This document shows, in pieces, positions 6,209-56,608 of a stretch of 64,000 nt of DNA (its first letter is position 1; each line of letters begins with the position of its first letter). The stretch covers positions 240,594-304,593 of the forward strand of contig CP060228.1 in the NCBI GenBank assembly GCA_023898565.1, given 5' to 3'. The position numbers were made by a program, and so were the translations under genes. Under the pieces are notes generated by a model. That model was given only the letters and a program-made list of their open reading frames with translations, was not told where the DNA came from and did no database searches. Origin of the DNA: Candidatus Nomurabacteria bacterium (GTDB lineage: Bacteria > Patescibacteriota > Minisyncoccia > Phycocordibacterales > UBA918).

Positions 6209-6287
6209 GTTTGACCATTTCACACGATCGTATTTGCATATTCAAGAAGTTTCTTCGCTACTCAAAATCTATACATGATGTACAGCG

Positions 6288-9532
<3,245 letters not shown>

Positions 9533-10716: not shown

Positions 10717-10770
10717 GTTTTTAGTCTAGCATTGACTAAACTGGAGACACTTATAATGTGCACACTAAGC

Positions 10771-10805
10771 AAAAGCACCGGCCAAAATTTGGCCGGTGCT
10801 TTTGC
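10771..10805 (-). terminator. intrinsic terminator
   Basis: agcaccggccaaaatttggccggtgct hairpin followed by tttgc. Confidence 0.55.
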
Positions 10806-13736: not shown

Positions 13737-13838
13737 TCTATCCTATTTTTATTTTTCTGCCTAGGGAGCCGCCATCCAGTGCCTGCAAAACCATCACTGC
13801 AATACAAAGTATTACTAATACTGGGAGTTTTTTATTCA
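13737..13838 (-). pseudogene. orphan 5' fragment of the small-protein paralogue family
   Basis: MNKKLPVLVILCIAVMVLQALDGGSLGRKIKIG* is a 34-codon fragment. Its first ~25 codons and the upstream region 13796-13925 are near-identical to 15566-15690. Confidence 0.5.
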
Positions 13839-13900
13839 TAATCTCAATGGCACTCCGCGCACTGTCATAATTTGTTGAACTCTATCTTTGTTAATTGTAT

Positions 13901-14452: not shown

Positions 14453-14547
14453 GTTTCAGGTTTGTAATTAATTGGTTGATAATGTGCGTTATTTATTCTA
14501 TATCATTCGCTGCCACCACATCATTTTTGCCCACTTGTCACACAGGT

Positions 14548-15075
14548 TTACTCGATGAATTTAAAGGTGTTGAGAACAAGCTGGAGCTCTGACGCGTACT
14601 CATCTTGCACACTCAAATTTATCCAATATTCATCATTAATCAGTACAAAGTATTCTTGCGTCGGTATTGAAGACATAGTAACAGAGGAATAACTCCACCA
14701 TTCCCGACCACCTATTACTATCTTTGACTCAAATTTCTTTCTCAATCGCTCCCCCCATTCTTTTGAGCTTATGAAAATACGTAATGGGGAAAAGGCTAAT
14801 TTTTCATCATCAATTAAACCAATGTTTAGTAGGGCGGCCTTATTAGAAGAAACGGGATCTTGTAAATTCCATCTTTTGGGATACTCAAACTGAAATCCCC
14901 ACTCTTCGTTTCTATAGATGTGGTTCTCGTTTTCAGCAATCTCTTCAGGCTGCTTCGTTTCCACAATGTCTTCTGTGGCCTGCTCGCCCGTCTTAATAAA
15001 AAGCCCGTGCCAAGCTGCCAATCCGACCGCGACCGCAATACAAAGTATTGTTAATACTGGGAGTTTTTTATTCAT
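14548..15075 (-). CDS. small membrane-anchored protein, paralogue family member 2
   Basis: MNKKLPVLTILCIAVAVGLAAWH...NHIYRNEEWGFQFEYP...NTFKFIE; start taken at M16 of the track ORF. Confidence 0.6.
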   Translation of the reverse strand: MNKKLPVLTILCIAVAVGLAAWHGLFIKTGEQATEDIVETKQPEEIAENENHIYRNEEWGFQFEYPKRWNLQDPVSSNKAALLNIGLIDDEKLAFSPLRIFISSKEWGERLRKKFESKIVIGGREWWSYSSVTMSSIPTQEYFVLINDEYWINLSVQDEYASELQLVLNTFKFIE

Positions 15076-15602
15076 CAACAAATTCAAAGGACTCAACAAC
15101 ACCAGCAAACAACTCTTCATAATGGCCGTTTGTGCCCAAAATCATTTTATAATCTTTAATGGGAAGAATTATCGCTATCTCTGTATCACTTTTCCAGTCA
15201 TAAATATACTTAACCCCAGAAACTCCGTCGACTACAATCAATTCTTCGGTCTTGTCTATGTTATTAAATGATTTTTCCGCAAAACTGTGTGTAACAATGT
15301 TTACCAGCACTGGGTCACCGTGATGTAATTCTTGATCAGGATAGAGAGTCACATTAAACTCTGAACTGCCACTTTGAAACGGGATCTTGTAAATTCCATC
15401 TTTTGGGATACTCAAACTGAAATCCCCACTCTTCATTTCTATAGATGTGGTTCTCGCTTTCAGCGATCTCTTCAGGCTGCTCCGTTTCCGCAATGTCTTC
15501 TGTGGCCTGCTCGCCTGTCTCAATAAAAAGCCAGTGCCAAGCTACTAGTCCAGCCACAACTACAATACAAAGTATTGCTAATACTGTGAGTTTTTTATTC
15601 AT
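15068..15602 (-). pseudogene. frameshifted/chimeric member of the paralogue family
   Basis: The N-terminal 82-codon ORF (15354-15602) shares ~220 bp of near-identical DNA with paralogue 2 (14850-15068 vs 15378-15603). It ends in a stop and continues in another frame (15068-15523) encoding a divergent C-terminal domain that ends ...SFEFVDE. Confidence 0.5.
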
Positions 15603-15663
15603 AATTTCAATGGCACTATGCGCACTGTCATAATTTGTTGAACTCTATCTTTGTTAATCACAT

Positions 15664-16212
15664 CTATTCTATGAACTCGAAAGATTCAATGATCTGATTG
15701 TACTCCTCTTCATATTTACTAATTCCAGTAATATCAATCCAATACTCATCACTGACCAAGACTAACGTGAGAATCGCTGGACGACTCCACCCATCTTTAT
15801 CATATGTCTTGTAGGCTGATTTCCCGTCTAGAAAAATCTCTTCAAAAACAACTCCCCTAGCCTTCATTTTGGTCATGGCACCTTCTATCCAGTTTTTGGG
15901 AGTAATGTTTATCGTGATGCCATTGGCAGGCGCTGGACCAATTGCCATATTGAATAAACTCACACCACTCACGAATGCCGGTTCCCGCACCTCCCATTCC
16001 TGTGGATACTCAAACTGAAATCCCCAGTCTTCATTGCGATAAATATTTACATCGGTTGTCTCTATTTCAACAAATTCTTCTGGGGACGTGGTGGCAGTTT
16101 GATTAGTGCCAATCTCAACCTCAACTGCTGAATCAGACATTTCGTGCCACACCCACCAAGCAGCACCAATGATTACCAAAATCAATACAAAAGTTAAAAG
16201 TGACTTACTCAT
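15664..16212 (-). CDS. small membrane-anchored protein, paralogue family member 4
   Basis: MSKSLLTFVLILVIIGAAWWVWHE...YRNEDWGFQFEYPQEWEVREPAF...ESFEFIE. The start overlaps the stop of the upstream giant gene by 8 nt. Confidence 0.6.
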   Translation of the reverse strand: MSKSLLTFVLILVIIGAAWWVWHEMSDSAVEVEIGTNQTATTSPEEFVEIETTDVNIYRNEDWGFQFEYPQEWEVREPAFVSGVSLFNMAIGPAPANGITINITPKNWIEGAMTKMKARGVVFEEIFLDGKSAYKTYDKDGWSRPAILTLVLVSDEYWIDITGISKYEEEYNQIIESFEFIE

Positions 16213-19415: not shown

Positions 19416-19600
19416 AAGACTATTGTACACCTTCGCCACCTGTACCGATAAGCAAAATAAACAAGAGCACACCAGCGACGACCGCAATGAAACTAAAGAG
19501 AAAGCGGTAGAAGGTTTTGTTGGCGAGTTTCTCTGATATGTTTTGGCGGAAGGCGTTTTTACGTGGTGGCATAGTGAGTACAGTATACCAAATCAAACGC

Positions 19601-19637
19601 AAAACCGCCGGAAACCCTTCGGGTTTCCGGCGGTTTT
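19601..19637 (-). terminator. intrinsic terminator
   Basis: aaaaccgccggaaacccttcgggtttccggcggtttt. Confidence 0.6.
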
Positions 19638-19688
19638 GCTTCCTTTCTCCCCACTCCGTCACCGCCAACCAAAATCACTCAGATACAC

Positions 19689-21770: not shown

Positions 21771-22424
21771 AACTATAATTATCTGTAATAGTTTGCGTAA
21801 TTACTACGCGTGCCTCCCGAAGGAGACTTAAACTTGATAAGTCTAATAATATGAATTAATTCATATTAGTAAGTGGTTTATCAGATCACTTACGTAATAT
21901 CACCAAACCTCTCACCCGAGAGTGTGAGGCTAGGCTGCGAATTCGGACTGCGTGTCTGTGCGGCGGACAGGGCGGGAAAAAGTCGTGCGGTAGGTTTCAC
22001 TTCTATAGAGTAAACACTCCATAGAAAATGGTTTTTGTTTTTGCTATGTAGTTGTCAAAAAACAAACGCTCATCCATCTAGTGACTTTTGTCTCTAAGGG
22101 TATGGTTGGGGTACTGCCCCTTGCATAACAATCCTAGAAAAAAAGCGCACCAGCGCGTACCAAGATAGTAGCATTATTTTTGTCTACTCGGGAGTTCACA
22201 GGTTGTGGATACATGGTCGGCTGCAACTGCAGCCTGCCTTGTTCCCATAGCCCTTCAGATGACTCTTGCTTCGACAGATAAACACCCATCTTGTGGTTCT
22301 GTGTATTAAGACGAGGCACCTCGCAGTGTCTTACCAAGCCACAAATTACAAAACACAAAATTTGTTTTGCAAGTCATACGCTCGCACTATGTGATACCTG
22401 GAGGCAGTGCTTTGGATTGCGTGC

Positions 22425-22462
22425 GGGACACCGTAGGTGTCCCGCACGCAATCTTCCTTCTC
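22425..22462. other. perfect 14-bp-stem hairpin in a long intergenic region
   Basis: gcgtgcgggacacc gtag ggtgtcccgcacgc. Confidence 0.4.
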
Positions 22463-27389: not shown

Positions 27390-27427
27390 AAAACCGGCTG
27401 GGACCCTTTGGGTCCCAGCCGGTTTTT
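27390..27427 (+). terminator. terminator after recA
   Basis: aaaaccggctgggaccctttgggtcccagccggttttt. Confidence 0.6.
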
Positions 27428-32754: not shown

Positions 32755-33854
32755 TGAAACCCTCAGCCGACCAAGCGTACGAGGCGTTTTGGGCCCGTCT
32801 ATCTCCTGCGTATCCCGTTTCTCGCGGCAGTCTTCGTTTGCCCATAGCTACAAAACTCACCTCGCTGCCAAATTTCGTACATAAAGAGATTCAAGAAGAA
32901 CTGAAAGCAATTTTACAAAAACTGCTTGATACACACGGCACGAAACAAAGCGCTGAGACTCGTGCTAAAAATGCTGGCGAGGATTTTATTACACCGTTAA
33001 TTACTGACGAATACACAGGAATTGTTCGCTTTGATTGCATTTGGGAGCCAGCTACTGGTTCGGTAAAAATTCTAGAGATTAACTGTGACTATCCTGACGG
33101 CCTACTACTTCATGACAGTACATATAGCGTACTGACGAGCACCGAAACCAACCTGCATCACAACTTATTCCTAGAACTACTTAACGAAGCCGAGTCTGTG
33201 TACGTGCTGCATAATGAACACGCTTTTTTTGTTGATAGTTACCATGCTGAACACAACAAACTTACTCATCATGGCAAGGAGAGTTTTATTGGATACGACG
33301 TCACTGAAATACCATCAAATGCAACTGTTCGCAGATGTCTTGAGACCAGCAAACTCACTCCAAAACAAGTCGAACGTTTAAAAAACAACAACCATCGATA
33401 CATCAACACTCTAGCTTTAAGAACTTTGGGCTATAAAGATTTACTTGCAACCATAAATCACTCTTTTGTTCCCAAAACAATCAAATTAACTTCTGAAAGT
33501 GTACCGGAAGTTACCTCCAGACAGTCCCAAATAGTCCTTAAGCCCGCAGATGGATGTGAGGGTTACGGTATATACTTTGGGCATCAAATAACCCCACTTG
33601 AGTGGGAATCGTTGGCGTATTCCTTACTTCAAAAGAACTATATAGCTCAAGAATTAGTTGAAATACCGAAACGCGCTGTTGATTTGTATGATAAAAACAC
33701 AGTAATAACTAAAGAGCTGTATTTTGACCTCTGTCCTCATTTCTTTGTTAAAAACGGTACTGTACTTGGCAGCGGACACACGTTAACTCGTTACTCTGAA
33801 AAGCAGATAGTAAATGTGTCTCAAGGTGGCGGCATTGGTTATTACGCTCTTTAA
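32754..33854 (+). CDS. ATP-grasp-like (GspS / circularly-permuted ATP-grasp type) family protein
   Basis: GIVRFDCIWEPATGSVKILEINCDYPDG resembles the pre-ATP-grasp/ATP-grasp core. The start overlaps the upstream stop (TAATG). Confidence 0.45.
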   Translation: MKPSADQAYEAFWARLSPAYPVSRGSLRLPIATKLTSLPNFVHKEIQEELKAILQKLLDTHGTKQSAETRAKNAGEDFITPLITDEYTGIVRFDCIWEPATGSVKILEINCDYPDGLLLHDSTYSVLTSTETNLHHNLFLELLNEAESVYVLHNEHAFFVDSYHAEHNKLTHHGKESFIGYDVTEIPSNATVRRCLETSKLTPKQVERLKNNNHRYINTLALRTLGYKDLLATINHSFVPKTIKLTSESVPEVTSRQSQIVLKPADGCEGYGIYFGHQITPLEWESLAYSLLQKNYIAQELVEIPKRAVDLYDKNTVITKELYFDLCPHFFVKNGTVLGSGHTLTRYSEKQIVNVSQGGGIGYYAL

Positions 33855-33887
33855 AAAGGCCGGCCCTCGAGAGGGCCGGCCTTTTTA
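33853..33887. terminator. bidirectional terminator
   Basis: aaaaaggccggccctcgagagggccggccttttt. Confidence 0.6.
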
Positions 33888-34786: not shown

Positions 34787-36211
34787 CTATTGCTCAAGTC
34801 GCGCAAATAAATTATCCGGCTTTTTGTTCTCTTTAATCGCAGTCAAAATAATCGCTGCGGTTTCTGGCATAAACGCCGCCAAAGCTTCTGCTACTTCATG
34901 CAGATCTTTTACCAGCTTCTGAATCATTTCCACCGCGGCTTCCTTGTCGGTCTTCACCACCTTAAATGGTTCATTTTCCGTGATGTATTCATCCATCTGC
35001 CCAATTGCATTCCATACTCCATCAAGCACCGTCTGGAATTCAAACCGCTCAAGTGCCGCATGATCCATGGTTGTTACATCTTTTGTGTCAACCGGGTCTT
35101 CAAGGTGCGTCTCGGCCATCTTCATAATACGCGCGGTGAGATTGCCCAGGCCATTCACAAGATTGGCGGTATACCACTCATCGAGTCTGTCCCAAGTTAC
35201 ATCGGTATCTTCAAATGGATGCACGTGACGAAGCAGCAGGTAGCGTGTCGCCTCTGCCCCATATTTGGCAGTAAGTTCAAATGGACTAATCACGTTCCCG
35301 AGTGACTTACTCATTTTTTGGCCACCACTATTGATAAAACCACCAATAAAAATCTGGGTTGAAGGCGGAAGCTCAGCCGAAAGGAGCATCGCCTGCCAAA
35401 TCGCACTCTGCTGACGCAAGTTGTCCTTACCAGCAAACTGCACGCCTGGCCACCAGCCGCCGAAGTCGGCCTGCTCTGGCCAACCTGTGACTGAGATGTA
35501 GTTGGTCAGAGCATCGAACCACACGTACATCACATGCTCCTCATCGTCTGGCACTGGCACGCCCCACGCCATTTTAGTCTTCAGACGAGACACACTAAAG
35601 TCTTGGAGACCACCTGCAACAAACTTCTTAATTTCGGCCAACCGAAAATCTGGCACGACGAAATTTTCTTGTGAAGCATACAAATCAAGCAACGCCTGCT
35701 GATAGTTTGAAAAGCGGAAGAAGTAGTTTTCCTCAGAGCGGATTTCAATTTCGTAATTTGGATGGAGCGGGCACTTGTCATCTTCAAGCTCTGAGTCGGT
35801 CTTTTCAAGCTCACACCCTTTGCAGTACTTCACCTCATGCTCCGCCTTATAAATATCCCCCTTCGCCTTGCAGCGTCGCCACATTTCCTGCGCAGCCAAC
35901 TTATGATGTGCGTCTGTTGTACGAACGAAATTTGCCTCCGGCAAAATGCCGAGCTCAGGCAACAGTTTCTTAAATTCATCAGCCAGCTCATCCACAAACA
36001 TCTGTGTATCCTTACCGAGCTCGAGCGCCTTATCGTAGATTTTCTGACCATGCTCATCAGTACCGGTATTCAAAAACACCGGATGCCCGAGCAGCTTGAA
36101 ATAGCGTGCGTAGGCATCAGCGCGCACCAACTCAGCCGCAAACCCAATATGCGGACTCGAGTTTACGTACGGAAGCGTTGTAGTGATGTATTTCGGTGTT
36201 TTTTCAGACAT
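34787..36211 (-). CDS. metG: methionyl-tRNA synthetase
   Basis: PYVNSSPHIGFA (HIGH-region variant reading HIGF), KMSKS, and CxxC zinc knuckles; start taken at M31. Confidence 0.8.
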   Translation of the reverse strand: MSEKTPKYITTTLPYVNSSPHIGFAAELVRADAYARYFKLLGHPVFLNTGTDEHGQKIYDKALELGKDTQMFVDELADEFKKLLPELGILPEANFVRTTDAHHKLAAQEMWRRCKAKGDIYKAEHEVKYCKGCELEKTDSELEDDKCPLHPNYEIEIRSEENYFFRFSNYQQALLDLYASQENFVVPDFRLAEIKKFVAGGLQDFSVSRLKTKMAWGVPVPDDEEHVMYVWFDALTNYISVTGWPEQADFGGWWPGVQFAGKDNLRQQSAIWQAMLLSAELPPSTQIFIGGFINSGGQKMSKSLGNVISPFELTAKYGAEATRYLLLRHVHPFEDTDVTWDRLDEWYTANLVNGLGNLTARIMKMAETHLEDPVDTKDVTTMDHAALERFEFQTVLDGVWNAIGQMDEYITENEPFKVVKTDKEAAVEMIQKLVKDLHEVAEALAAFMPETAAIILTAIKENKKPDNLFARLEQ

Positions 36212-36253
36212 AGTGAAATTACTGTAGCATAGAAAATACGTTTTGAGACATAA

Positions 36254-36374
36254 AGCAAACTGACGCAATGTGTAGGCCTCGCGGAGCAGCGGTTCAGTCA
36301 AGATACGAAGTGTCTTGACTGGTTCGCGTCGCGAGCGGAGAGCTTGACTCGTGCCTACTCATTGCGTCAGTTTG
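36254..36374. repeat. palindromic repeat element, copy 1 (~120 bp; terminal inverted repeats plus internal hairpin)
   Basis: The termini gcaaactgacgcaatg...cattgcgtcagtttgc enclose a core whose reverse complement matches 40421-40507 almost exactly. Confidence 0.6.
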
Positions 36375-36384
36375 CTCTTTGTTT

Positions 36385-37779
36385 TTATTTCAAGTACGCA
36401 GCTAGCTCAGCAATTGCCACACGCTCCTGCTCACCGGTATCACGATTGCGTACAGTCACGGTATCTTTCAGCGCTGGATTTTCTTCGCCGAGCGTATCAA
36501 AGTCAATTACCACACACGCCGGTGTACCAATTTCGTCTTGACGACGGTAGCGCTTGCCGATGTTGCCGTTGTCATCCCATGCCACGTTGCCAAACTCTTT
36601 CTTCAACGCCACAAAGACTTCACGCGCCTTCTCTACAAGCTGCGGCTTGTTCTTCAGGAGCGGTGACACCGCCACGCGATATGGTGCTAGTTCAGATGAC
36701 AAGCGAAGGACTGTACGAGTTTCCCCATTTAATTCATCCTCGTCATAAGCGTCACACAATACAGCCAAGAACATTCGACCCATACCCACTGATGTTTCAA
36801 GAATCCACGGAATGTACTTCTCTCCTGTTTCAGGATCTGTGAATCGTAAGTCTGTTCCCGAGAATTTTTGATGCTGAGTTAAGTCATAATCCGTACGGTC
36901 ATGAATTCCTTCCAACTCATCAAAACCTCCAGGGAAATTGTATTCGATATCCCAAGCATCAGCTGCATAGAACACCAAATTCTCATGCTGCTTAAAGCGA
37001 AGATTTTCTGGCTTGATACCAATAGATACGTACCAATCAAGTCGGTCTTGTTTAATCTTTTCGTATGCGGCTTTGTTTTCATGCGGCTTTACAAAAAACT
37101 GCGTGTCCGCCTGCTCCATTTCACGAGTACGGAACAAGAAGTTTCTCGGAGAAATTTCATTACGAAACGCCTTACCAATCTGAGCAATACCGAACGGAAG
37201 TTTTGGCGACATCGAATTAACAATGTTCTTATAGTTTAGATAGATACCTTGACAAGCCTCGCCCGGAAGATAAACCGGCTCAGCTCCTTCTGAAGTAAAG
37301 TCACCTAGGTTTGATTTCACAAGCAAATTGAATGCTTTAGCGGCAGTGAAGTTTTTCTGGCCGCACTTAGGACATGGAATCTTATCTCGATTTGCATCAA
37401 AAAGTTCATTGATTTCTGCCTCCGACATTTTCTCGTCAGCCGTTACTCCAACTCGCTCTAGCTCCTTGTCGACTCTAATGCGCGTATTACATTCCTTACA
37501 TTCTGCCAATGGATCTGAAAAGCCAGACGTGTGGCCACTCGCTTCCCAAACCATAGGATGTTTAAACATTCCCGAGTCTAGTCCATAGTAGTTCTCCTTG
37601 TCATATACATTAGCCTTCCACCACGCTTGCTTTAGATTATTGAGCAACTCCACGCCCATCGGACCATAATCAAACACCCCAGCTAACCCGCCATAAATCT
37701 CACTCCCCTGAAACACAAAACCGCGTCGCTTACACAGACTAGTTATTTTTTCCATTTTTTGATCAATGTTTTCTTTCAT
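36385..37779 (-). CDS. glyQS: glycyl-tRNA synthetase (alpha2 type)
   Basis: MEKITSLCKRRGFVFQGSEIYGGLAGVFDYGPMGVEL... with class II motifs; start at M56 (or M64 at 37755). Confidence 0.85.
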   Translation of the reverse strand: MKENIDQKMEKITSLCKRRGFVFQGSEIYGGLAGVFDYGPMGVELLNNLKQAWWKANVYDKENYYGLDSGMFKHPMVWEASGHTSGFSDPLAECKECNTRIRVDKELERVGVTADEKMSEAEINELFDANRDKIPCPKCGQKNFTAAKAFNLLVKSNLGDFTSEGAEPVYLPGEACQGIYLNYKNIVNSMSPKLPFGIAQIGKAFRNEISPRNFLFRTREMEQADTQFFVKPHENKAAYEKIKQDRLDWYVSIGIKPENLRFKQHENLVFYAADAWDIEYNFPGGFDELEGIHDRTDYDLTQHQKFSGTDLRFTDPETGEKYIPWILETSVGMGRMFLAVLCDAYDEDELNGETRTVLRLSSELAPYRVAVSPLLKNKPQLVEKAREVFVALKKEFGNVAWDDNGNIGKRYRRQDEIGTPACVVIDFDTLGEENPALKDTVTVRNRDTGEQERVAIAELAAYLK

Positions 37780-37837
37780 ATTTCTTTCGCTTTTCAGCTC
37801 CGTCCAGCGATTTGCCCTAGGTCTTGGGCAACATGAA

Positions 37838-39790
37838 TTATCTAACCACTGCCCCGTCCCCCTTTTCAAATCCCATTTCGGTTGAGAGTTCAGTTGTAAC
37901 AGCTCCCGCAGAATCTTGCAAGAGCACACCGGTATAGCGATCATTAGCCTTCAAAGACTGCGGTCGCACGAGCACCGGACTAGTTCCAAGCTGAGAGAGA
38001 CTTGGCTGAATGCTCACCTGAAAGGTAAGTTCTTTTCGCTGACCGCGCGTGATGTCACCAATATCCCAAACCATATTTTTTGATACGGTATTGTATGTCA
38101 ATGTACCATCACCTTCGTACATATCGAGCCAGTTAACATAAATCGGCAAGCTAGTCTCCACAATCGCATTCCCGACGTTATTGGCACCAGCTTCAGCCAC
38201 CAGCGTAACCGCGTACGTAGTAAACTCACCAACTTTCGGCGGAATCGGGCCGCTGCCAGTAAAGCTACCGGCGTCCCTGCTTACCTGACTTCTCATTGCA
38301 ACGTGTGATGAGTACTTAGCCTCCGCAGTAACCGAACCAATGAGTGTTTCTTGAGCGCTTGTCTCAGCCACGCGTCTCGCATAGACATTTACCACCATGT
38401 TAAAAAAGGCTTCTGTTCTAAGCGGTCCTGGATTCAGGCTAAAACTAAGTCCGCGCGTATCTCCAGGATTGATTTGTGCAAAGGAAGGATTGTTGGAAAC
38501 TTCCCAACGGACCGTGCCGGTATTTGAGTCATAGAAGCCGTTGCTACTTGCAATCGAATCTTCGTCAAGTGCATTGCCTCCCGGCACCACCTCAACAATC
38601 ATGTCATACACCGATTCTTCAAGCGTATTCTTGATATTAATTCCTACACTAGAACCATCCGCCTCTGGCAAAATGGCAGAACCATCACGATCACCATTGA
38701 TGGAAATTGCCACATCAATAAATGGCCGTTCAATAATAAAATCGGCTCGTGCATCGGTCAGTGTCGATCCGACGAGATACTGGTTGTCTGGATTAGCTGG
38801 ACCCGCTGCAAAATTGATACGGAAGGTTTCATCTGTTAAGCCACGGACAATCCCCCGTAATTTAATGGTGGTGCTAGCTTCCGGCAGCAGCTTATCAATC
38901 TTCCACACATTTTCTCCGTAAATTGGCGCAGGCGTAGATGATTCAAAATCAAATCCATTTGGATACGACGCGGTGATGAGTATATCCTCAAGTGGTGATG
39001 AGGCGTTTGAAACGGCAGTGATGGTTAGGTCGACCCGCTGTCCCGACGCAACTTTTTCAACATTATCTATACGAAGCACTAGTGGCGACGAGCTAATTCG
39101 AAAGGCAAGCGGATTTGCGTCTTTGTAAAACATGCCATTAGAACCGTTAATACGATACTCTACCGAAGCCTCAATCTTTTTCTCAGCGTTTTCTTCACCA
39201 AATACAGCCACTTTGACTGGTACTTTTTGTATTTCCCCCGGACCGACATCATCGAGCGGAATTCGCTCTTCGAATAAATTTCGTGGGGAGTCTCCTACTG
39301 AGCGCGTGCCATTTGGATATCGCAAAATCAAGGTCGCCGATTCAATCGGAACAGTATTTTGGTTGGCCACCAAGACTTCAAGTGACATCACTTCACCACC
39401 ACCAATGAGTGACTGACCTTCAATCGTGACCTGGATATTATCACTGGAAATTTGGTTACCACCAAAATACCAGAACATAGTTGATATAAGCGCCACAAAG
39501 GCAAAAATGAAGAAGCTCCCTAGGAGCACAAAACTACGATAATGCCGTCGCGGTGACTGCACGCTGGGAGCCTCAGACAACCCGGACTCTTCACCAGCAG
39601 CAGCCATACCTTGCCGAAGATCGTTTGTATCGCCACGACGCGCTTGACTGGGCAAGCTCCAATTCCGCGATACATCTACTTTTTCATCGGTCAGCTGGTG
39701 CCGAGCGGCTTTCTCAGCTTCTGCTCCTCGATCATACAGACGCTTACGCATCTCATCGAGATTATCCTGTGATTGTAGTGGCTTCATCAT
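37838..39790 (-). CDS. membrane-anchored large extracellular protein (repeated beta-sandwich domains), hypothetical
   Basis: A cytoplasmic N-terminus and single TM helix are followed by ~550 aa of repetitive beta-rich sequence. Confidence 0.5.
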   Translation of the reverse strand: MMKPLQSQDNLDEMRKRLYDRGAEAEKAARHQLTDEKVDVSRNWSLPSQARRGDTNDLRQGMAAAGEESGLSEAPSVQSPRRHYRSFVLLGSFFIFAFVALISTMFWYFGGNQISSDNIQVTIEGQSLIGGGEVMSLEVLVANQNTVPIESATLILRYPNGTRSVGDSPRNLFEERIPLDDVGPGEIQKVPVKVAVFGEENAEKKIEASVEYRINGSNGMFYKDANPLAFRISSSPLVLRIDNVEKVASGQRVDLTITAVSNASSPLEDILITASYPNGFDFESSTPAPIYGENVWKIDKLLPEASTTIKLRGIVRGLTDETFRINFAAGPANPDNQYLVGSTLTDARADFIIERPFIDVAISINGDRDGSAILPEADGSSVGINIKNTLEESVYDMIVEVVPGGNALDEDSIASSNGFYDSNTGTVRWEVSNNPSFAQINPGDTRGLSFSLNPGPLRTEAFFNMVVNVYARRVAETSAQETLIGSVTAEAKYSSHVAMRSQVSRDAGSFTGSGPIPPKVGEFTTYAVTLVAEAGANNVGNAIVETSLPIYVNWLDMYEGDGTLTYNTVSKNMVWDIGDITRGQRKELTFQVSIQPSLSQLGTSPVLVRPQSLKANDRYTGVLLQDSAGAVTTELSTEMGFEKGDGAVVR

Positions 39791-39813
39791 ATGCTTTTAA
39801 GTATACCACCGCC

Positions 39814-40404
39814 CTAGAGATGACTCGCCTTCACCGCATGGGCATAGAGTTTGGCAATACCAGTTTCAAATGATTTTGCGTATAAGTCTGGAATCTCAAT
39901 CACCGATGCAGCTCGGAGCGATTCTGGTATGTACGTCATGTCTACGTACCCCAACTGTCCCAAAAGCCGCACCTGCACCACCTGCTCTACAAACGTCCGC
40001 TTAGACAGCTTGCCGAGCAGTGATTCAAGTGAGGTTATTACTTCATCAAAAAACTGCGGCTGCGCCTCCTCGCCATGCACAAACCGTCGCAACAGCCGCA
40101 CCAAACTCACTACGCTCCCGCGCGCTTCTTTACTATCCGCTTCATGATAGAAATTTCTAAGCGGCTCAATACTCCCAATCCGCCAACCTGCCTTCCCCTT
40201 TACCAATGACACACGAAGGTAGGTAAAATCCTGCAGTGCATAGCGTTGGCGCGAGCGCTCCTCGCGCACACTGCGCGCATCAGCAAAAAGCATACCGGCC
40301 TCACGGGTAAACAGCAAAAAAGACCGGTCGGCAGTATTCCGGTCTCTCGTGCCACAGACTAATGCTTCGGTTGTGTAGGTTTCGTAGGCCATAAAGTATT
40401 GCAT
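39814..40404 (-). CDS. recO: DNA repair protein RecO (short form)
   Basis: The N-terminal OB fold TEALVCGTRDRNTADRSFLLFTREAGMLFADARSVREERSRQRYALQDFTYLRVSL matches the RecO pattern; start at M9. Confidence 0.6.
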   Translation of the reverse strand: MQYFMAYETYTTEALVCGTRDRNTADRSFLLFTREAGMLFADARSVREERSRQRYALQDFTYLRVSLVKGKAGWRIGSIEPLRNFYHEADSKEARGSVVSLVRLLRRFVHGEEAQPQFFDEVITSLESLLGKLSKRTFVEQVVQVRLLGQLGYVDMTYIPESLRAASVIEIPDLYAKSFETGIAKLYAHAVKASHL

Positions 40405-40407
40405 CTC

Positions 40408-40520
40408 ATTGTCAGTTTCTGCAGGCACGAGTCAAGCTCTCCGCTCGCGACGCGAACCTGTCAAGATGTTGCACATCTGGACAGAACCGCTGCTCCGCGA
40501 GGCCTGCCGAAACTGCCACT
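40408..40520. repeat. palindromic repeat element, copy 2
   Basis: cattgtcagtttctgcaggcacgagtcaagctctccgctcgcgacgcgaacc...gaaccgctgctccgcgaggcctgccgaaactgccactg is the reverse complement of the copy-1 core, with similar termini. Confidence 0.6.
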
Positions 40521-40542
40521 GAATACAAGAGACTGATGATGA

Positions 40543-43500
40543 TTACACCTTCAAAATCGCAAAGACAAACTCGTAGTCGTCCGCCTGCACACTTTCTCCT
40601 TCTGTCTCAGCGAAGACGAGCTTGCTTGCGCCCACAGTCTTAGTGAGCAGTTCACGATGCAGTTCGATTGCCTGTTGACCAGCTTCATTCGTGGCAATCG
40701 TGAGCGTGACTGCATCGCTCGGCGCAAGACCTTCGGTCTTGCGCCGCCCCTGAATAGCCCGCATCAGTTCACGCACCGCCCCTTCAGCAATGAGTGCTGG
40801 AGTAAGATTTGCATCAATCATTACTGCATTTTCAATGTTTGAATCATGACTAACCATCTTTACGTTAACCTCATCTCTCACAAGAGATTGAAATGGCTCA
40901 TATAAACCACCATTCAAATCTCTAACACGCAACTCATTCAATGGTTGCCGCACTTTAATATTAGTCTTTGACCGATCTTCTAGTGCCATCGTAATTAACT
41001 CTCTAGTCTCTCTCATTTTTAGAATAATTTCCTCATCAACCTCCCCTCCCTCTGGCCACGCGCCGAGGTGCACGCTTTCAGCATCATCGTCTTCTTTCAC
41101 CGCCTGCCAGAGATACTCAGCGTAAAACGGCATGACTGGCGCCATTACGAGCGCGAGCGTCCGGAGCGTGTAGCGGAGGGTAGCGAGCGCTCGGTCTCTA
41201 TCAGCTGCATCGTCGCCTTTAAGACGCTCTCGTGAGCGACGCAAATACCACACCGACAGATCATCAATAAAGTCTGTCAGTGGGCGCACTGCCTTATCAA
41301 GCTCATACTTTTTATATCCTTCGGTCGATTCAGCAATGAGCTGATTGAGTCGCGCAAGCACCCAGCGGTCGAGCACGTGGGTCGAATCATTGGCCGCCGG
41401 CGCTGCAGCAAACATTTGGTACATCGTGAGCACGTTATGCAGCCGACCGATATTCTTGCGCTGCAATTCGAGCACTTCTTTTTCTGAGAAGCTCAAGTCT
41501 TCTCCGCGCACTACTGGTGATGAGAGCAAGTAGAAGCGCATCGCATCAATCCCTACTCGATCAGCCAGCTCCATTGGGTCAGGATAATTCTGCAGCGACT
41601 TCGACATCTTCTTGCCATCTTCGGCGAGCACCAGCCCGTTCACAATCACATTCTCATACGGCGATTTACCAAAGAGTGCTGTGCCAAGCACAATGAGCGA
41701 ATAGAACCAGCCACGGGTTTGGTCGAGTCCTTCAGCAATAAACTGCGCTGGGAAATTTTCAGTCTCAAAGGTGTCCTGGCACGCAAACGGGTAGTGAAAC
41801 TGTGCGTATGGCATCGAACCACTTTCAAACCAACAATCAAACACATCTGGAATACGCTCTATCTTCACGCCATTATCAAAGAGCTCAATATCGTCGATGT
41901 ATGGCCGATGGAAGTCGAGCTCATAGAAGTCGTTGTGCGGCATTGGTGTAAACGGCAGTGCGCGAAGCTCCGCATTCGCGAGGTCATATGAATTATCTTC
42001 GATATGCTTGGCTGCCACCTCCGCACTGTCGCCCTTAGCGACTGCCTGGAGCATCTGCATCGTGCCGTTGTGTGAGACAACGAGCACCTTCTTCCCTTCC
42101 AGCTTTGCATTTACTTCGTAGAGGAATGCACCAGTACGCGTTCGTACATCATTCCAATTCTCACCACCCTCCGGACGCTTCGTAAGCCGGTCCATACCAG
42201 TCTCATAAAATGCGTGGTACTCATCTACCTGCTTCCCTTCAAATTCACCAAACGACATTTCAAGAAGTCGATCATCAGCAATGAGCATATCCGAAGAAAG
42301 CCCAAGTTCGGCCGCGACTGCCTCGGCCGTTTCTTTGGTGCGCTGGAGTGGTGAGTAATAGATATAATCAATGCCGGTTTCGCGGAGCTCAGCCGCCAAA
42401 GCCTTCACCTGCTCCTTGCCAGTTTCCGTGATGCCATTTTCTACCCCGCTCTCACGATTAAGGACCCCTTTGGTATTAAGGGCAGACTCCGCATGACGAG
42501 TAATAAAGAATTGATTTCCGTAATCTGGAACATGTTTTTGTAATTCAGCCAAACTGCCGAAAATCTTAACTTGTCCATTGGCGGTATTACGCCAAATTGG
42601 CAGCGGTGCACCCCAATAGCGCTGCCGGCTAACCGCCCAATCACGAGCACCTTCGAGCCACTTACCAAAGCGATTTTCTCCCACGTGTCCTGGCACCCAA
42701 CCAACAGTATTATTGGCCGCCAAAAGTTGGTCTTTGATTTGTGGCACGTCCACAAACCACGACGTCGTCGCGTAATTAAGCAGCGGTGTGTCACAGCGCC
42801 AACAGTGCGGATAGCTGTGCGAAATCTTCTCCTTCGCAAACAACCGACCACGAGCAGCCAGCGCGCGAATTACCTCGATGTCAGCATCCATATGCGTAAT
42901 GTCACCTTCATCTTTTGGCTTCACGAGCTGCCCAGCAAAATCCGTCACGAAGTCTTCGAAATGCCCCGACTCAGTCACATGATGCTTTACTGGAATACCA
43001 TGCGCCTGCCCCAGCTTCATGTCATCTTCACCATAGGCTGGCGCGATATGTACGATGCCAGTTCCTTCCTCACCGACTTCCACAAAGTCAGCATGGAGCA
43101 CCGTCCAGGCGTGTTCGCCGGCTTCTGCTACTTGCTCGCGCAGCCATGGGAATGGCGGTTCATACTTTTTTCCGAGCAATTCAGAGCCCTTAAGTACTTC
43201 AATTTGATTTGGATAAAAATCAGCAAATACCCCCCAATCACCAGCAGAGTTTGTAATATTTTTTTCTAACTCTTCCCTGTCAAAAAGCTGATCTAAGGCT
43301 GACATCACACTTCTTCCGCTGTTTAGATTCTTCCAGAAAATTTCTTTACTTAAAATGTAAGCACCTGGAGAAACAACAGAAGACTCATCAACATCATCAG
43401 ATTCTGACTTAACCCAAGTTTCAGAAGTTCTGTTTAAGTGTACATTTTTCACTTTCACATACTCAATCTCCTGATTGACCGCGAGCGCCATATTCCCTGG

Positions 43501-44223
43501 CAGTGTCCACGGGGTCGTTGTCCACGCGATAAGTGATGTATTTTCTTCATCTACCAGAGGAAATTCCACAAAGACTGAAATATCCTTGATGTCTTTGTAT
43601 CCAAGGTTTACCTCGAAGTTTGAGAGCGTCGTGCCACAGCGTGGACAGAGATGCATACTCTTAAACCCTTCAAACACCAAGCCCTTATCATGGAGTGATT
43701 TAAATACCCACCACACACTTTCGGTGTAGGTGCTATCCATAGTCTTGTAGTCGTTTTCCATGTCCACAAAGCGACCCATGCGCGGCACAATCTTCCGCCA
43801 ATCATCGGCGTACTCCATCACCGACTCGCGCGCTTCTTCATTAAAATTCTTCACCCCGTAGGTTTCGATGTCACGCTTGGTCGCCAGACCAAGCTTCTTT
43901 TCGATGAGGTTTTCAACCGGCAAGCCGTGACAATCCCAGCCCCACTGTCGCCGCACACGGTAGCCCTGCATGGTCCAAAAGCGTGGCACCGCATCCTTAA
44001 TGGTGCCAGCCAAGATGTGGCCGTAGTGCGGCATACCCGTCGCAAACGGCGGACCGTCATAAAATACGTAGTCACCTTTCGGCGCCCCGCCGGCTGGCGC
44101 CGTCAAACTTTTATTAAAAATATCGTGCTCCTGCCAAAATTCGAGCATCGATTCTTCGCGGAGTGCCACTTCAGACTTCTCCACTTCAACTACCTCAACA
44201 GTATCGTTGTTTTTGTTAGACAT
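40543..44223 (-). CDS. ileS: isoleucyl-tRNA synthetase (type 2) with ~230-aa inserted histidine-phosphatase-like domain
   Basis: HIGH (PHYGHILAG), KMSKS, and the conserved IleRS blocks WTTTPWTLP and AVSRQRYWGAPLPIW...IPDVFDCWFESGS. The insertion between the last two blocks contains FFITRHAES...YYSPLQRTKETA...VLVVSHNG. Confidence 0.85.
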   Translation of the reverse strand: MSNKNNDTVEVVEVEKSEVALREESMLEFWQEHDIFNKSLTAPAGGAPKGDYVFYDGPPFATGMPHYGHILAGTIKDAVPRFWTMQGYRVRRQWGWDCHGLPVENLIEKKLGLATKRDIETYGVKNFNEEARESVMEYADDWRKIVPRMGRFVDMENDYKTMDSTYTESVWWVFKSLHDKGLVFEGFKSMHLCPRCGTTLSNFEVNLGYKDIKDISVFVEFPLVDEENTSLIAWTTTPWTLPGNMALAVNQEIEYVKVKNVHLNRTSETWVKSESDDVDESSVVSPGAYILSKEIFWKNLNSGRSVMSALDQLFDREELEKNITNSAGDWGVFADFYPNQIEVLKGSELLGKKYEPPFPWLREQVAEAGEHAWTVLHADFVEVGEEGTGIVHIAPAYGEDDMKLGQAHGIPVKHHVTESGHFEDFVTDFAGQLVKPKDEGDITHMDADIEVIRALAARGRLFAKEKISHSYPHCWRCDTPLLNYATTSWFVDVPQIKDQLLAANNTVGWVPGHVGENRFGKWLEGARDWAVSRQRYWGAPLPIWRNTANGQVKIFGSLAELQKHVPDYGNQFFITRHAESALNTKGVLNRESGVENGITETGKEQVKALAAELRETGIDYIYYSPLQRTKETAEAVAAELGLSSDMLIADDRLLEMSFGEFEGKQVDEYHAFYETGMDRLTKRPEGGENWNDVRTRTGAFLYEVNAKLEGKKVLVVSHNGTMQMLQAVAKGDSAEVAAKHIEDNSYDLANAELRALPFTPMPHNDFYELDFHRPYIDDIELFDNGVKIERIPDVFDCWFESGSMPYAQFHYPFACQDTFETENFPAQFIAEGLDQTRGWFYSLIVLGTALFGKSPYENVIVNGLVLAEDGKKMSKSLQNYPDPMELADRVGIDAMRFYLLSSPVVRGEDLSFSEKEVLELQRKNIGRLHNVLTMYQMFAAAPAANDSTHVLDRWVLARLNQLIAESTEGYKKYELDKAVRPLTDFIDDLSVWYLRRSRERLKGDDAADRDRALATLRYTLRTLALVMAPVMPFYAEYLWQAVKEDDDAESVHLGAWPEGGEVDEEIILKMRETRELITMALEDRSKTNIKVRQPLNELRVRDLNGGLYEPFQSLVRDEVNVKMVSHDSNIENAVMIDANLTPALIAEGAVRELMRAIQGRRKTEGLAPSDAVTLTIATNEAGQQAIELHRELLTKTVGASKLVFAETEGESVQADDYEFVFAILKV

Positions 44224-47662: not shown

Positions 47663-48322
47663 TTACAACAACGGTCGAATAAGTCCGTATAGCTCGGTAT
47701 TGATATTGTCCTTACTGCGAAGCTTGTCATCCATAAGGCAAGAGACGATTTTCCACTTTTCTAACGCAGCAATACTAGCAGCGCATTTCTGCAGCGACGC
47801 TTGGTAATATTCGTCGGTTTCCGTATGACCGAGATTTGGCTTGCTTTCGTCTGTCGTGAGCAAAGCGTGGCGCATTTCTGCTGGCATATCTAAATACACC
47901 ACCATATCTGGCCGTGGCACCTTGAATACATCGTACTCCAGGCGCTGCAACCACAGCAGAAATGCGCCACGCTTCTCAACATCTGAAATTTTTGCTCCTT
48001 GGTGGAGCATGTTGGCAGTTACATAGCGATCAAGAATGACATGCTTCCCTTCCGCAAGCCAGCCGGCAATCAAATCTTTTGTCTCAAAGCGATCGCCGGC
48101 AAAAAGAATCGCGGCTAAGCGCGGATCAAGCTCAAGAAAATTTCCGTGAACCTCATCAATCCATTCTCTAATATACGATCCAAAAAAACTGTCTTCATAA
48201 CGTGGGAATTCTAAGGTCTCTACGGCAACCCCTTCTCCACGCAGTCGTTCGGCCAAAAGCCTCACTTGCGTTGCCTTTCCAGCCCCGTCTGCTCCTTCAA
48301 TAACGATTAGTTTTCCTGACAT
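47663..48322 (-). CDS. tmk: thymidylate kinase (copy 1)
   Basis: P-loop IVIEGADGAGKAT, DRY motif DRYVTANMLHQG, and lid region. Confidence 0.85.
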   Translation of the reverse strand: MSGKLIVIEGADGAGKATQVRLLAERLRGEGVAVETLEFPRYEDSFFGSYIREWIDEVHGNFLELDPRLAAILFAGDRFETKDLIAGWLAEGKHVILDRYVTANMLHQGAKISDVEKRGAFLLWLQRLEYDVFKVPRPDMVVYLDMPAEMRHALLTTDESKPNLGHTETDEYYQASLQKCAASIAALEKWKIVSCLMDDKLRSKDNINTELYGLIRPLL

Positions 48323-48874: not shown

Positions 48875-49531
48875 TTACAACAACACTTGACGCACTGTCC
48901 GATAAATCTCCTCATGAATATCCTCCCGCGCCCGCAACACCCCTTCGACAGTGCAGGCAATTTTCTGCCAGTTATTGAGGCCAGCCACCAGTGACTGTGC
49001 CGCAGTTTCAGTCGCCGTTTGATGCGCTTCGTCGAGCTCTGCCAAATCAAGCGCTTTGCGCGAACCGTCTCCTGCCAATAACCCCTTACGGACCGCAAAT
49101 GGCACCTCTAGGTACATAATGAGATCTGGTCGCGGAATCCCAAACACTCCATGCTCCACCTCATCAATCCAGTTTAGAAAATCAGCACGCTCAGTTTCAT
49201 CAGTAAGCTTTGCCCCTTGATGCAGCATATTCGCGCTCACATACCTATCCGCAATAACCACCGTGCCACCTTCAAGCCATTCACGGATTTGCCCTGATGA
49301 TTCAAAGCGGTCAGCCGCATAGAGCGCCGAGGCGATTCGCGGATCAATCTGCATGAAGTCGCCCCGCTTGCCATCCAGACACTCTCGAATGAGTGCGCCA
49401 AACGTATTGCTACTGTACTTAGGAAAATCAATCGTTTCCACCTTTCTTCCTTCTTGCAACAAACGCTCTTTCAAGAGTGCTACCTGTGTCGCCTTACCCG
49501 AACCGTCACTACCATCGATTACGAAAAACAT
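48875..49531 (-). CDS. tmk: thymidylate kinase (copy 2, paralogue)
   Basis: P-loop FVIDGSDGSGKAT and DRYVSANMLHQG; shares IPRPD and other blocks with copy 1. Confidence 0.8.
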   Translation of the reverse strand: MFFVIDGSDGSGKATQVALLKERLLQEGRKVETIDFPKYSSNTFGALIRECLDGKRGDFMQIDPRIASALYAADRFESSGQIREWLEGGTVVIADRYVSANMLHQGAKLTDETERADFLNWIDEVEHGVFGIPRPDLIMYLEVPFAVRKGLLAGDGSRKALDLAELDEAHQTATETAAQSLVAGLNNWQKIACTVEGVLRAREDIHEEIYRTVRQVLL

Positions 49532-51126: not shown

Positions 51127-51132
51127 ACAAAG

Positions 51133-51165
51133 AAAAAGGCCGGCGCTACGCGCCGGCCTTTTTCT
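51133..51165. terminator. bidirectional terminator (folA / rplK)
   Basis: aaaaaggccggcgctacgcgccggccttttt. Confidence 0.6.
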
Positions 51166-51176
51166 TTTGCTGACTG

Positions 51177-52371: not shown

Positions 52372-52441
52372 TGAAATGCTCCTTGAAAGTCCAGCAGCAT
52401 AATGCCGTGAAGCAGCTCTTTGGTCAATGGGGTACACACAC

Positions 52442-52470
52442 AAAAGGCCGGCGCTATGCGCCGGCCTTTT
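52442..52470 (-). terminator. terminator after nusG
   Basis: aaaaggccggcgctatgcgccggcctttt is one mismatch from the 51133-51165 hairpin. Confidence 0.55.
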
Positions 52471-52481
52471 GTGTGTGTACA

Positions 52482-53434: not shown

Positions 53435-53477
53435 AAAAACGCAAGGCCGGCGAGTCCTTTGGACTCGCCGGCCTTGC
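53435..53477 (-). terminator. intrinsic terminator
   Basis: gcaaggccggcgagtcctttggactcgccggccttgc. Confidence 0.55.
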
Positions 53478-56504: not shown

Positions 56505-56608
56505 GATACTGATGTGTATAGTCTTATAATTTTAAATAATAGTATCCTGAATTCCTGTATAAATAAAGCCAAAACCTCCCCCGACGGGAGGTTTTGGCTT
56601 TATTCTAA

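What the first reader, a model, noticed from the sequence alone, without database searches (positions are those of the whole stretch)
36254..40520. Two copies of a ~120-bp nested palindromic element flanking glyQS, a large surface-protein gene and recO
The core of 36254-36374, reverse-complemented, is near-identical to 40421-40507: aggcacgagtcaagctctccgctcgcgacgcgaacc...gaaccgctgctccgcgaggcct. Both copies carry similar 16-nt terminal inverted repeats (gcaaactgacgcaatg / cattgcgtcagtttgc-like) and an internal 9-bp hairpin. Both sit in 3' intergenic spacers of aminoacyl-tRNA synthetase genes. This looks like a MITE/REP-type mobile or structured-RNA element. Because the copies are inverted relative to each other, the minus-strand transcripts of the two loci are mutually complementary over ~85 nt. 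The pair could also mark the end points of a past inversion.
Basis: seen in the sequence. Interest (0 to 1): 0.6.

Follow-up and report, generated by a model that had tools for sequence, protein, structure and literature searches.

The report
Kaiserbacteria intergenic hairpin repeat element family
The two inverted copies are real and belong to an undescribed family of about 60-90-nt conserved cores, each sitting at the tip of a long stem whose sequence is specific to its locus, found between genes of Kaiserbacteria-like (CPR) bacteria; it is most likely a small mobile or structured nucleic-acid element, not the scar of a 4-kb inversion.

Summary
The repeat is real. The cores 36274-36356 and 40423-40505 are inverted copies, 83 nt and 89% identical. 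All 9 differences lie in the apical hairpin, and 3 base pairs there changed on both sides. The window comes from a Candidatus Kaiserbacteria genome.

The same core occurs at other intergenic loci in related genomes and metagenome contigs. Its anatomy is AGRCCUCGCGGAG, then a variable hairpin, then CGAGCGGAGAGCUUGACUCGUGYCU. Each copy is clamped by a 17-28-bp outer stem whose sequence is unrelated between loci. So the "shared 16-nt terminal repeats" claim is not supported.

Relatives keep the order IleRS-RecO-DUF11-GlyRS-MetRS. Some have no spacer at either site, so the elements are insertions and the 4-kb block was never inverted. Sister strains with identical MetRS carry copy 2 in the opposite orientation, so the complementarity between the two copies is incidental.

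There is no Rfam, tRNA, phage, plasmid or literature match. There are no target-site duplications and no transposase in the window.

Best reading: a non-autonomous palindromic repeat element, REPIN/MITE-like in behaviour but not a member of either, that folds on one preferred strand. A functional structured RNA remains a serious rival.

The parts
36246..36384 (+). Copy 1, whole element (outer stem plus core). The better-folding 'A' strand is the window + strand, antisense to the flanking genes.
   Evidence: (115.2 bits with model R1)
36246..36273 (+). Copy 1, outer stem P1, 5' arm. It pairs with 36357-36384 (24 Watson-Crick pairs of 28). Its sequence is specific to this locus.
   Evidence: (I2)
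36274..36286 (+). Copy 1, conserved 5' motif AGGCCTCGCGGAG.
36287..36332 (+). Copy 1, variable arm (type I). The lower stem is CAGCGGTTC / GGTTCGCGTCGC, around the apical hairpin 36296-36320.
36333..36356 (+). Copy 1, conserved 3' motif GAGCGGAGAGCTTGACTCGTGCCT. It contains the mini-hairpin CGAGC-GGAGA-GCUUG.
36357..36384 (+). Copy 1, outer stem P1, 3' arm.
40406..40522 (-). Copy 2, whole element. The A strand is the window minus strand, which is sense to the flanking genes.
   Evidence: (107.8 bits)
40506..40522 (-). Copy 2, outer stem P1, 5' arm on the A strand. It pairs with 40406-40422 (14 Watson-Crick pairs of 17) and is unrelated in sequence to the copy 1 stem.
40493..40505 (-). Copy 2, conserved 5' motif AGGCCTCGCGGAG.
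40447..40492 (-). Copy 2, variable arm with the apical hairpin 40459-40483. All 9 differences from copy 1 are here.
40423..40446 (-). Copy 2, conserved 3' motif GAGCGGAGAGCTTGACTCGTGCCT.
40406..40422 (-). Copy 2, outer stem P1, 3' arm on the A strand. It ends 2-14 nt before the RecO start codon (40404 or 40392).
40543..44223 (-). Context: isoleucyl-tRNA synthetase. Its stop codon lies 20 nt upstream of copy 2.
39814..40404 (-). Context: RecO-like gene directly downstream of copy 2. The start codon is at 40404 or 40392.
36385..37779 (-). Context: glycyl-tRNA synthetase (464 aa). Its stop codon abuts the outer stem of copy 1.
34787..36211 (-). Context: methionyl-tRNA synthetase (474 aa). Its start codon lies about 35 nt downstream of copy 1.

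Best explanation
The two copies belong to a family of non-autonomous palindromic repeat elements in Kaiserbacteria-like (CPR) genomes.

The unit that is shared and that spreads is the core of about 58-91 nt. It consists of AGRC, CUCGCGGAG, a variable hairpin, CGAGCGGAGAGCUUGACUCGUG, and GYCU. Each copy sits at the apex of a 17-28-bp perfect or near-perfect stem whose sequence is specific to its locus.

Shown here: (1) the family exists; (2) the core is highly conserved while the stems covary; (3) copies occur at unrelated intergenic loci in either orientation; (4) presence, orientation and subtype differ between close relatives at the same spacer, and some relatives have no spacer at all at these sites, so the copies are gains and losses of DNA.

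Inferred: the core is recognised and copied in single-stranded form on the 'A' strand by an enzyme encoded elsewhere in the genome. That strand keeps conserved G-U pairs and usually folds better. This resembles how REP/REPIN and IS200-type hairpins are handled. As a by-product, the element places a very stable hairpin between genes. How the locus-specific outer stem arises is not resolved. It could come from insertion into pre-existing hairpins or from an inverted copy of flanking DNA.
For: Family and anatomy. There are 13 distinct full copies plus diverged copies (L039b, L025 site 1).

Within the window: only two full copies (115 and 108 bits). The next hits, at 24 bits or less, are plain hairpins.

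Stems: 95.6% of cells are paired, 21 of 31 pairs changed on both sides, and 0 of 500 shuffles reach these values.

Outer stems: unrelated between loci, while the core blocks of 36 and 22 nt are identical in the two window copies.

Insertion status: in L043 and L050, IleRS abuts or overlaps RecO. In L050 the GlyRS-MetRS gap is 10 nt.

Turnover:
- At the GlyRS|MetRS spacer, the window has type I antisense, L030 has type II sense, and L025 has a degenerate short copy (37.5 bits).
- At the IleRS|RecO spacer, the window copy is sense, L016-18 is antisense despite a 100% identical MetRS, and L025 keeps only the remnant CGTGTCTGGCGA.
- L032 is flipped relative to L034/36/37 at one orthologous site.
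- Orientation relative to neighbouring genes is 7 sense and 5 antisense.

Strand preference: the A strand folds better in 11 of 14 cores, by a mean of 3.1 kcal/mol. G-U pairs are conserved in helices 2 and 4, and they become G-C in L025 and L039b.

A second, unrelated hairpin family shares the same spacers.
Against: - There are no direct target-site duplications, and no terminal inverted repeat is shared between copies beyond AGRC/GYCU.
- No transposase or recombinase was found among 60 window ORFs. No autonomous parent element was found.
- The locus-specific long outer stems have no established mechanism. Their G+C content is near the genome average, unlike the G+C-rich, A/T-flanked terminator hairpins of this genome.
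- The core is kept intact in genomes whose MetRS is only 86% identical (L030, fetched through a protein and therefore unbiased). Orthologous copies L034/36/37 keep motif positions outside the search pattern better than the variable parts. That fits a host function as well as it fits mobility.
- Copy number per genome is unknown. Only 64 kb of this genome and stretches of at most 21 kb of the relatives were seen.
- Metagenome copies were retrieved with an exact 19-mer from the 3' motif, so their conservation of that motif is partly by construction.
Confidence: 0.45

Rival explanations
1. It is a functional structured RNA, or a site acting as single-stranded DNA. The conserved three-way-junction core at the tip of a long double-stranded stem would be the working part. 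Candidates are an intergenic RNA-processing or RNase III-type signal, a protein-binding decoy, or an undescribed self-cleaving ribozyme. The element would spread only occasionally by duplication.
For: - The 13-nt and 24-nt motifs are nearly invariant in genomes with 74-88% identical housekeeping proteins.
- Stems covary. Three pairs of the apical hairpin changed on both sides between the two window copies.
- Conserved G-U pairs become G-C in diverged copies.
- The A strand is more stable in 11 of 14 cores.
- Among orthologous copies L034/36/37, flanks are 78-85% identical and the variable arm 71-82%. The 18 motif positions outside the search pattern show only 2 changes.
Against: - Orientation relative to the transcribed strand is random (7 sense, 5 antisense) and flips between strains with identical flanking genes.
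- No conserved promoter drives the A strand. The one promoter-like match at copy 2 is not repeated in other copies.
- The element is absent from 6 of 9 related lineages at these sites and is decaying in L025, so it is dispensable.
- There is no match to any of the 4227 Rfam families, including all known ribozyme classes, even at E-values up to 10.
- Two alternative pairings of the conserved core (CUCG/CGAG, or GCGG/UCGU plus the mini-hairpin) cannot be told apart with the current diversity.
Confidence: 0.3
2. It is an inverton: a phase-variable segment flipped in place by a site-specific recombinase acting on the flanking inverted repeats.
For: The core is flanked by 17-28-bp inverted repeats. 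It is found in both orientations at three orthologous spacers, including between strains with identical MetRS.
Against: - Flipping in place would keep the same outer stem, but the flipped versions have different outer stems and different surrounding spacer DNA.
- The outer repeats share no sequence between loci, so no common recombinase site exists.
- No recombinase gene lies in the window.
- There is no consistent outward promoter in the core.
Confidence: 0.05
3. They are ordinary intrinsic terminators or mRNA-stabilising hairpins. The similarity would come from a local duplication, or the pair would mark the ends of a past 4-kb inversion.
For: - The window is full of long perfect intergenic hairpins.
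- Relatives L051, L054 and L055 carry plain terminator hairpins right after GlyRS.
- The outer stem of copy 1 has A-rich and T-rich flanks.
Against: - The same core occurs at unrelated loci in other genomes.
- Copy 2 and several other copies have no U-tract, and the terminator scan finds nothing at either site.
- The outer stems are not G+C-rich like the genome's terminators.
- Gene order and orientation of the block are the same in all relatives.
Confidence: 0.03

Closest known systems
REP / REPIN elements mobilised by RAYT (Y1 HUH) transposases (PMC3116915, PMC3333891, PMC2817692)
   Same: Both are short intergenic imperfect palindromes that fold into long hairpins. Both occur in either orientation, are non-coding and multi-copy, and are thought to be handled as single-stranded hairpins by an enzyme encoded elsewhere. 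They can persist at orthologous sites.
   Different: In REPINs the conserved REP sequence forms the outer ends of the hairpin and the apex varies. Here the apex-proximal core is conserved and the outer 17-28 bp differ at every locus. There is no GTAG-type foot motif. No RAYT gene was seen in the 64 kb. Copy number appears low (2 per 64 kb).
Bacterial MITEs and palindromic repeats (Neisseria Correia elements, ERIC, Rickettsia RPE; from my own knowledge)
   Same: The size (about 100-150 bp with stems) is similar. So are the hairpin-forming transcripts, the intergenic position including inside operons, the occurrence in both orientations, and the presence/absence differences between relatives.
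   Different: MITEs have family-wide conserved terminal inverted repeats and direct target-site duplications. Both features were tested here and are absent.
Insertion sequences that target palindromes (IS1397, ISKpn1, IS621, ISPpu9/10; PMC1525189)
   Same: They are a precedent for mobile DNA landing inside extragenic palindromes, which would explain a core sitting at the tip of a pre-existing hairpin.
   Different: Those are full-length IS elements with transposase genes that target a conserved REP family. Here the 'target' stems are all different and unlike this genome's terminators. No empty hairpin with the same stem was found.
Phage T7-type intergenic RNase III processing signals, and orphan structured-RNA motifs with a variable closing stem (from my own knowledge)
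   Same: Both have a double-stranded lower stem, a conserved asymmetric internal loop or junction, and an upper hairpin. Both lie between cistrons.
   Different: Those signals work on one strand only and are oriented with transcription. This element is oriented at random. No cleavage data exist.

Membership tests
MITE | Terminal inverted repeats conserved among the copies of a family | tested here: not met
   The outer stems are unrelated between loci. Only the 4-bp AGRC/GYCU is shared.
MITE | Direct target-site duplication flanking each copy | tested here: not met
   The flanks of all 13 copies are reverse complements of each other, not direct repeats.
MITE | Multiple copies at unrelated loci, with presence/absence differences between relatives | tested here: met
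MITE | A related autonomous IS with matching ends | tested here: inconclusive
   There is no transposase among 60 window ORFs. An IS30-like ORF in L034 lies about 850 nt away and is unrelated to the element ends. Whole genomes were not available.
REP / REPIN | A conserved 20-40-nt palindromic unit with a conserved tetranucleotide at its foot, forming the outer ends of the doublet hairpin | tested here: not met
   The conserved sequence is internal and the outer stem is variable.
REP / REPIN | Associated RAYT gene and dozens to hundreds of copies per genome | not testable with these tools
   Only 64 kb of this genome was available. There are 2 copies in the window and no HUH transposase domain.
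Inverton | The same inverted repeats flank the segment in both orientation states | tested here: not met
   Window copy 2 versus L016-18 copy 2, and L032 versus L034, have different outer stems and spacers.
Inverton | A recombinase gene nearby and a promoter inside the invertible segment | tested here: not met
   no recombinase; no consistent promoter.
Intrinsic terminator | A G+C-rich stem followed directly by a U-tract on the transcribed strand | tested here: not met
   The scan finds none at either copy. Copy 2 has no U-tract. Copy 1 has only UUUAUGU on the sense strand.
Any Rfam 15 family (including hammerhead, twister, twister-sister, pistol, hatchet, HDV-like, T-box, tRNA-like) | Covariance-model match | tested here: not met
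   There is no hit on the elements at E-values up to 10 or up to 0.1 in seven related loci. ARAGORN finds nothing.
Integron attC site | R''/R' boxes (RYYYAAC ... GTTRRRY) at the ends of the hairpin, in cassette arrays beside an integrase | tested here: not met
   The boxes are absent from the sequences. The copies flank housekeeping genes in inverted orientation. No integrase was found.

The most novel reading that the evidence does not exclude
The element could be a new kind of structured nucleic-acid module. One possibility is an undescribed RNA class whose conserved three-way junction is the active part, such as a self-cleaving or RNase III-directed intergenic processing signal. The other is a mobile element that inserts at hairpin tips or builds its own locus-specific inverted repeat. 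No described bacterial transposon does either. A second, unrelated family with the same architecture shares the same spacers (L016-18, L047/48), which hints at a general mechanism in these genomes.
Probability: 0.2. Interest if true: 0.75.

Novelty: new variant of a known kind. Interest (0 to 1): 0.45.

Why it matters
CPR/Patescibacteria genomes are small and streamlined and are thought to carry few repeats. A conserved hairpin element that is gained, lost and flipped between near-identical strains would mark active genome dynamics in these organisms.

Its architecture is the reverse of REPINs and MITEs: an invariant asymmetric core inside a stem that differs at every locus. That means either an unknown way of making or using long inverted repeats, or a functional RNA/DNA motif that has not been catalogued.

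In practice, the covariance model built here could be used to annotate the family. It could also look for the partner enzyme by co-occurrence across complete genomes.

Tried and rejected
- A genome-contig scan with the 20-mer AACCGCTGCTCCGCGAGGCC returned only chance hits, in coding sequence for the peptide EPLLREA in high-G+C genomes.
- Two viral contig scans found nothing, apart from one coding chance hit.
- Distant BLAST against phages and plasmids found nothing.
- Rfam at permissive thresholds and tRNA search found nothing.
- The look-up of the IleRS product by exact sequence failed.
- The idea that the two outer stems are homologous but 'inside-out' (a shared AAACTG) was rejected as chance after a shuffle test. 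No other copy of the outer stem exists in the window.
- The idea that the core carries a -35 box (TTGACT) serving downstream genes was rejected. Only copy 2 has a -10-like hexamer at the right distance.
- The idea that the conserved motifs derive from, or pair with, the local rRNA was rejected. There are no shared 10-mers.
- The idea that L040 shows cross-phylum spread was rejected. One 83% identical homologue is labelled as a flavobacterial MAG, but the locus is 50% G+C with a compact CPR-like gene context.
- An apparent 'loaded hairpin' at 47863-47974 turned out to lie inside a thymidylate kinase gene and is not an insertion.
- The purifying-selection argument from L034/36/37 was weakened because those loci were retrieved with an exact 19-mer from the motif.
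- Literature searches found no description of the element.

Full report
**1. The observation**

The window holds two inverted copies of an 83-nt core, at 36274-36356 and 40423-40505, 89% complementary. A 36-nt block and a 22-nt block are identical in both copies. They occur nowhere else in the 64 kb, and 0 of 100 shuffles give a match.

All nine differences lie in the 25-nt apical hairpin. Three of its base pairs changed on both sides: A-T to T-A, A-T to G-C, and C-G to T-A (read). So the hairpin itself has been maintained.

Each core is enclosed by a further inverted repeat. In copy 1 this has 24 Watson-Crick pairs out of 28. In copy 2 it has 14 out of 17. The whole elements fold far better than shuffled sequence. 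As RNA the z-score is -9 to -10 for copy 1 and about -3.4 for copy 2. As DNA it is -10 and -4 to -6.

The stems are different sequences. Their residual similarity (an AAACTG on swapped arms) is at chance level after a shuffle test.

**2. Context**

All five genes lie on the minus strand (Pfam; translations):

- IleRS, 44223-40543
- copy 2
- RecO
- a DUF11 surface protein
- GlyRS, 37779-36385
- copy 1
- MetRS, 36211-34787

The MetRS is 100% identical to proteins labelled Candidatus Kaiserbacteria. The window matches contigs of GCA_020428845.1 and several metagenomes. None of the 60 larger ORFs of the window has a transposase or recombinase domain.

**3. A family, and its anatomy**

L030 is a relative fetched through its MetRS (86% identical), so the sampling is not biased by the motif. 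It carries the core at the same two spacers.

An exact 19-mer from the conserved part found eight further loci in metagenome contigs, plus four chance hits. Relaxed searches and a covariance model added two diverged copies: L039b, and the GlyRS|MetRS site of L025-L029. L039 is Kaiserbacteria-like by its RNase Y.

Read on the strand I call A, every copy has this layout:

- outer stem of 17-28 bp
- AGRC
- CUCGCGGAG
- variable hairpin
- CGAGCGGAGAGCUUGACUCGUG
- GYCU
- outer stem

There are three size classes:

- 83 nt, with the hairpin TGTCAAGA...TCTTGACA
- 88-91 nt, with the hairpin TGTCAATGACCCG...GGGCTCTTGAC
- 58 nt, with only a short hairpin

On a model-based alignment of 17 copies, 95.6% of cells are paired and 21 of 31 pairs changed on both sides. 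None of 500 shuffles reaches these values.

RNAalifold proposes a three-way junction. It has GCGG/UCGU and a mini-hairpin CGAGC-GGAGA-GCUUG, both with conserved G-U pairs. In the diverged copies these G-U pairs become G-C. An alternative pairing, CUCG/CGAG, is preferred by single-sequence folding. The two cannot be told apart with the present diversity.

The A strand folds better than its complement in 11 of 14 cores, by a mean of 3.1 kcal/mol. G-U counts in the outer stems favour A only weakly, 14 against 8.

**4. What the relatives say**

The order IleRS-RecO-DUF11-GlyRS-MetRS, all on one strand, is the same in every relative that keeps the block intact, with or without the element. In L047 and L049, about 9 kb of other genes lie between GlyRS and MetRS. 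The 4-kb block has therefore not been inverted.

In L043 and L050, IleRS abuts or overlaps RecO. In L050, GlyRS and MetRS are 10 nt apart. So the element together with its outer stem is inserted DNA, not an elaboration of an ancestral hairpin at these sites. L051, L054 and L055 have ordinary G+C-rich terminator hairpins after GlyRS.

Occupancy turns over quickly:

- At GlyRS|MetRS, the window has an 83-nt copy antisense to the genes. L030 has an 89-nt copy in sense. L025 has a degenerate short copy.
- At IleRS|RecO, the window copy is in sense. Strains L016-L018, whose MetRS is identical, have it antisense, with a different outer stem and 190 nt of extra spacer. L025 keeps only a 7-nt remnant of the core plus flank.
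- L032 is flipped relative to L034/36/37 at another orthologous site. Only the outermost part of the stem is still alignable.

Over all independent loci the A strand is sense to the neighbouring gene 7 times and antisense 5 times. Because L016-18 carry the two copies as direct repeats, the 83-nt complementarity between the two transcripts in this window is a strain-specific accident.

**5. The outer stems**

They are unrelated between loci, although the two window cores are identical outside the apical hairpin. The stems are therefore not simply inherited with the core.

The genome does contain many long perfect intergenic hairpins. Those are G+C-rich with A/T-tract flanks. The outer stems of the element have average composition, and several lack any U-tract. 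No empty hairpin with the stem of a loaded one was found.

So neither 'insertion into a terminator loop' nor 'inverted copying of the flank' is demonstrated. This remains the main unexplained feature.

**6. Constraint, with a caveat**

Among the orthologous copies L034, L036 and L037:

- the coding flanks are 78-85% identical
- the variable arm is 71-82% identical
- the outer stem is 68-88% identical
- the 24-nt 3' motif is 24/24 identical

These loci were retrieved with an exact 19-mer from that motif, so this conservation is partly by construction. The 18 motif positions outside the pattern show 2 changes, where about 6-7 would be expected. That is only suggestive.

The unbiased comparison (window against L030) also shows intact motifs. 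L025 shows decay and deletion.

**7. Interpretation**

The element behaves like a small non-autonomous repeat. It appears at unrelated loci, in both orientations, patchily, with fast turnover, and it shares spacers with a second, unrelated hairpin family.

It fails the defining tests of MITEs (no shared terminal repeats, no target duplication) and of REP/REPINs (conserved part inside rather than outside, no foot motif). It also fails the inverton test, because the flipped versions do not share their repeats.

It matches nothing in Rfam, ARAGORN, phage, plasmid or viral collections, or the searchable literature.

I rate the readings as follows:

- a mobile element handled as a single strand on its A strand: 0.45
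- a functional structured RNA/DNA motif: 0.30
- an inverton: 0.05
- ordinary terminators, local duplication or inversion scars: 0.03

The first two are not mutually exclusive.

**8. Verdict**

The feature is real and the family is real and apparently undescribed. The inversion and antisense-pairing ideas are refuted. The mechanism is unresolved. Interest is moderate.

Noticed in passing
window 40543-44223 (-); also L016, L025, L030, L043, L050: The isoleucyl-tRNA synthetase (1226 aa) carries a histidine-phosphatase (His_Phos_1) domain at aa 573-733, embedded within the class I catalytic domain. The same architecture is annotated in all Kaiserbacteria relatives fetched.
   Followed up: partly
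L016 3734-3948 (also L017, L018); L047 18030-18125; L048 9990-10075: A second, unrelated hairpin element family has the same architecture. A locus-specific long outer stem encloses AGAGAATRGCGACTATG, a variable hairpin, and CAAGGAGCGTATGATTYGAG. In L016-18 it lies directly beside the flipped copy 2. It is absent from the window.
   Followed up: partly
L030 9636-9797: Another long hairpin lies right next to the family-1 copy in the GlyRS|MetRS spacer. It has a 23-bp perfect outer stem (GTGACTCTCTCCCGTGTTCTGAA...) and an interior of about 115 nt of unknown type. Its only Rfam hit is a sub-threshold VA RNA match, which reflects a generic long hairpin.
   Followed up: no
window 5875-9531 (-): The 23S rRNA match spans 3243 nt against a 2925-nt model, so an insertion is possible. 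Two tRNA genes lie between the 23S and 5S genes. No 16S gene is adjacent, so the rRNA operon is unlinked.
   Followed up: no
window 47863-47974: A perfect inverted repeat of about 21 bp with a spacer of about 70 nt lies inside a thymidylate kinase gene (47663-48322). A second tmk paralogue (48875-49531, 46% identical) aligns without a gap, so this is not an insertion.
   Followed up: partly
window, e.g. 10768-10806, 19597-19641, 22414-22454, 27390-27426, 33852-33887, 51129-51167, 52433-52479, 53442-53476, 56561-56605: Intergenic regions carry unusually long perfect hairpins with 15-23-bp stems and 3-4-nt loops. Most are G+C-rich with A/T-tract flanks. The 29-nt palindrome AAAAGGCCGGCGCTAYGCGCCGGCCTTTT occurs twice. 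They are probably bidirectional terminators.
   Followed up: partly
window 13791-16254: There are tandem direct repeats of 135-227 nt, 84-92% identical, across three or four adjacent small ORFs without Pfam matches. They are probably tandem paralogues.
   Followed up: no
L034 3334-4317 (-): An IS30-like transposase ORF (N-terminus MLYKHLSIEERELIQKLL...) lies about 850 nt from the element in L034 only. It is absent at the same place in L032. The identification is from the sequence and was not confirmed with Pfam.
   Followed up: no
L047/L049 934-9850: In one Kaiserbacteria lineage about 9 kb of other genes lie between GlyRS and MetRS. They include a cytochrome d1-like beta-propeller, an FAD oxidase, an ABC/FtsX/MFP efflux set and an ECF sigma factor. 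This spacer seems to be a recurrent insertion point.
   Followed up: no
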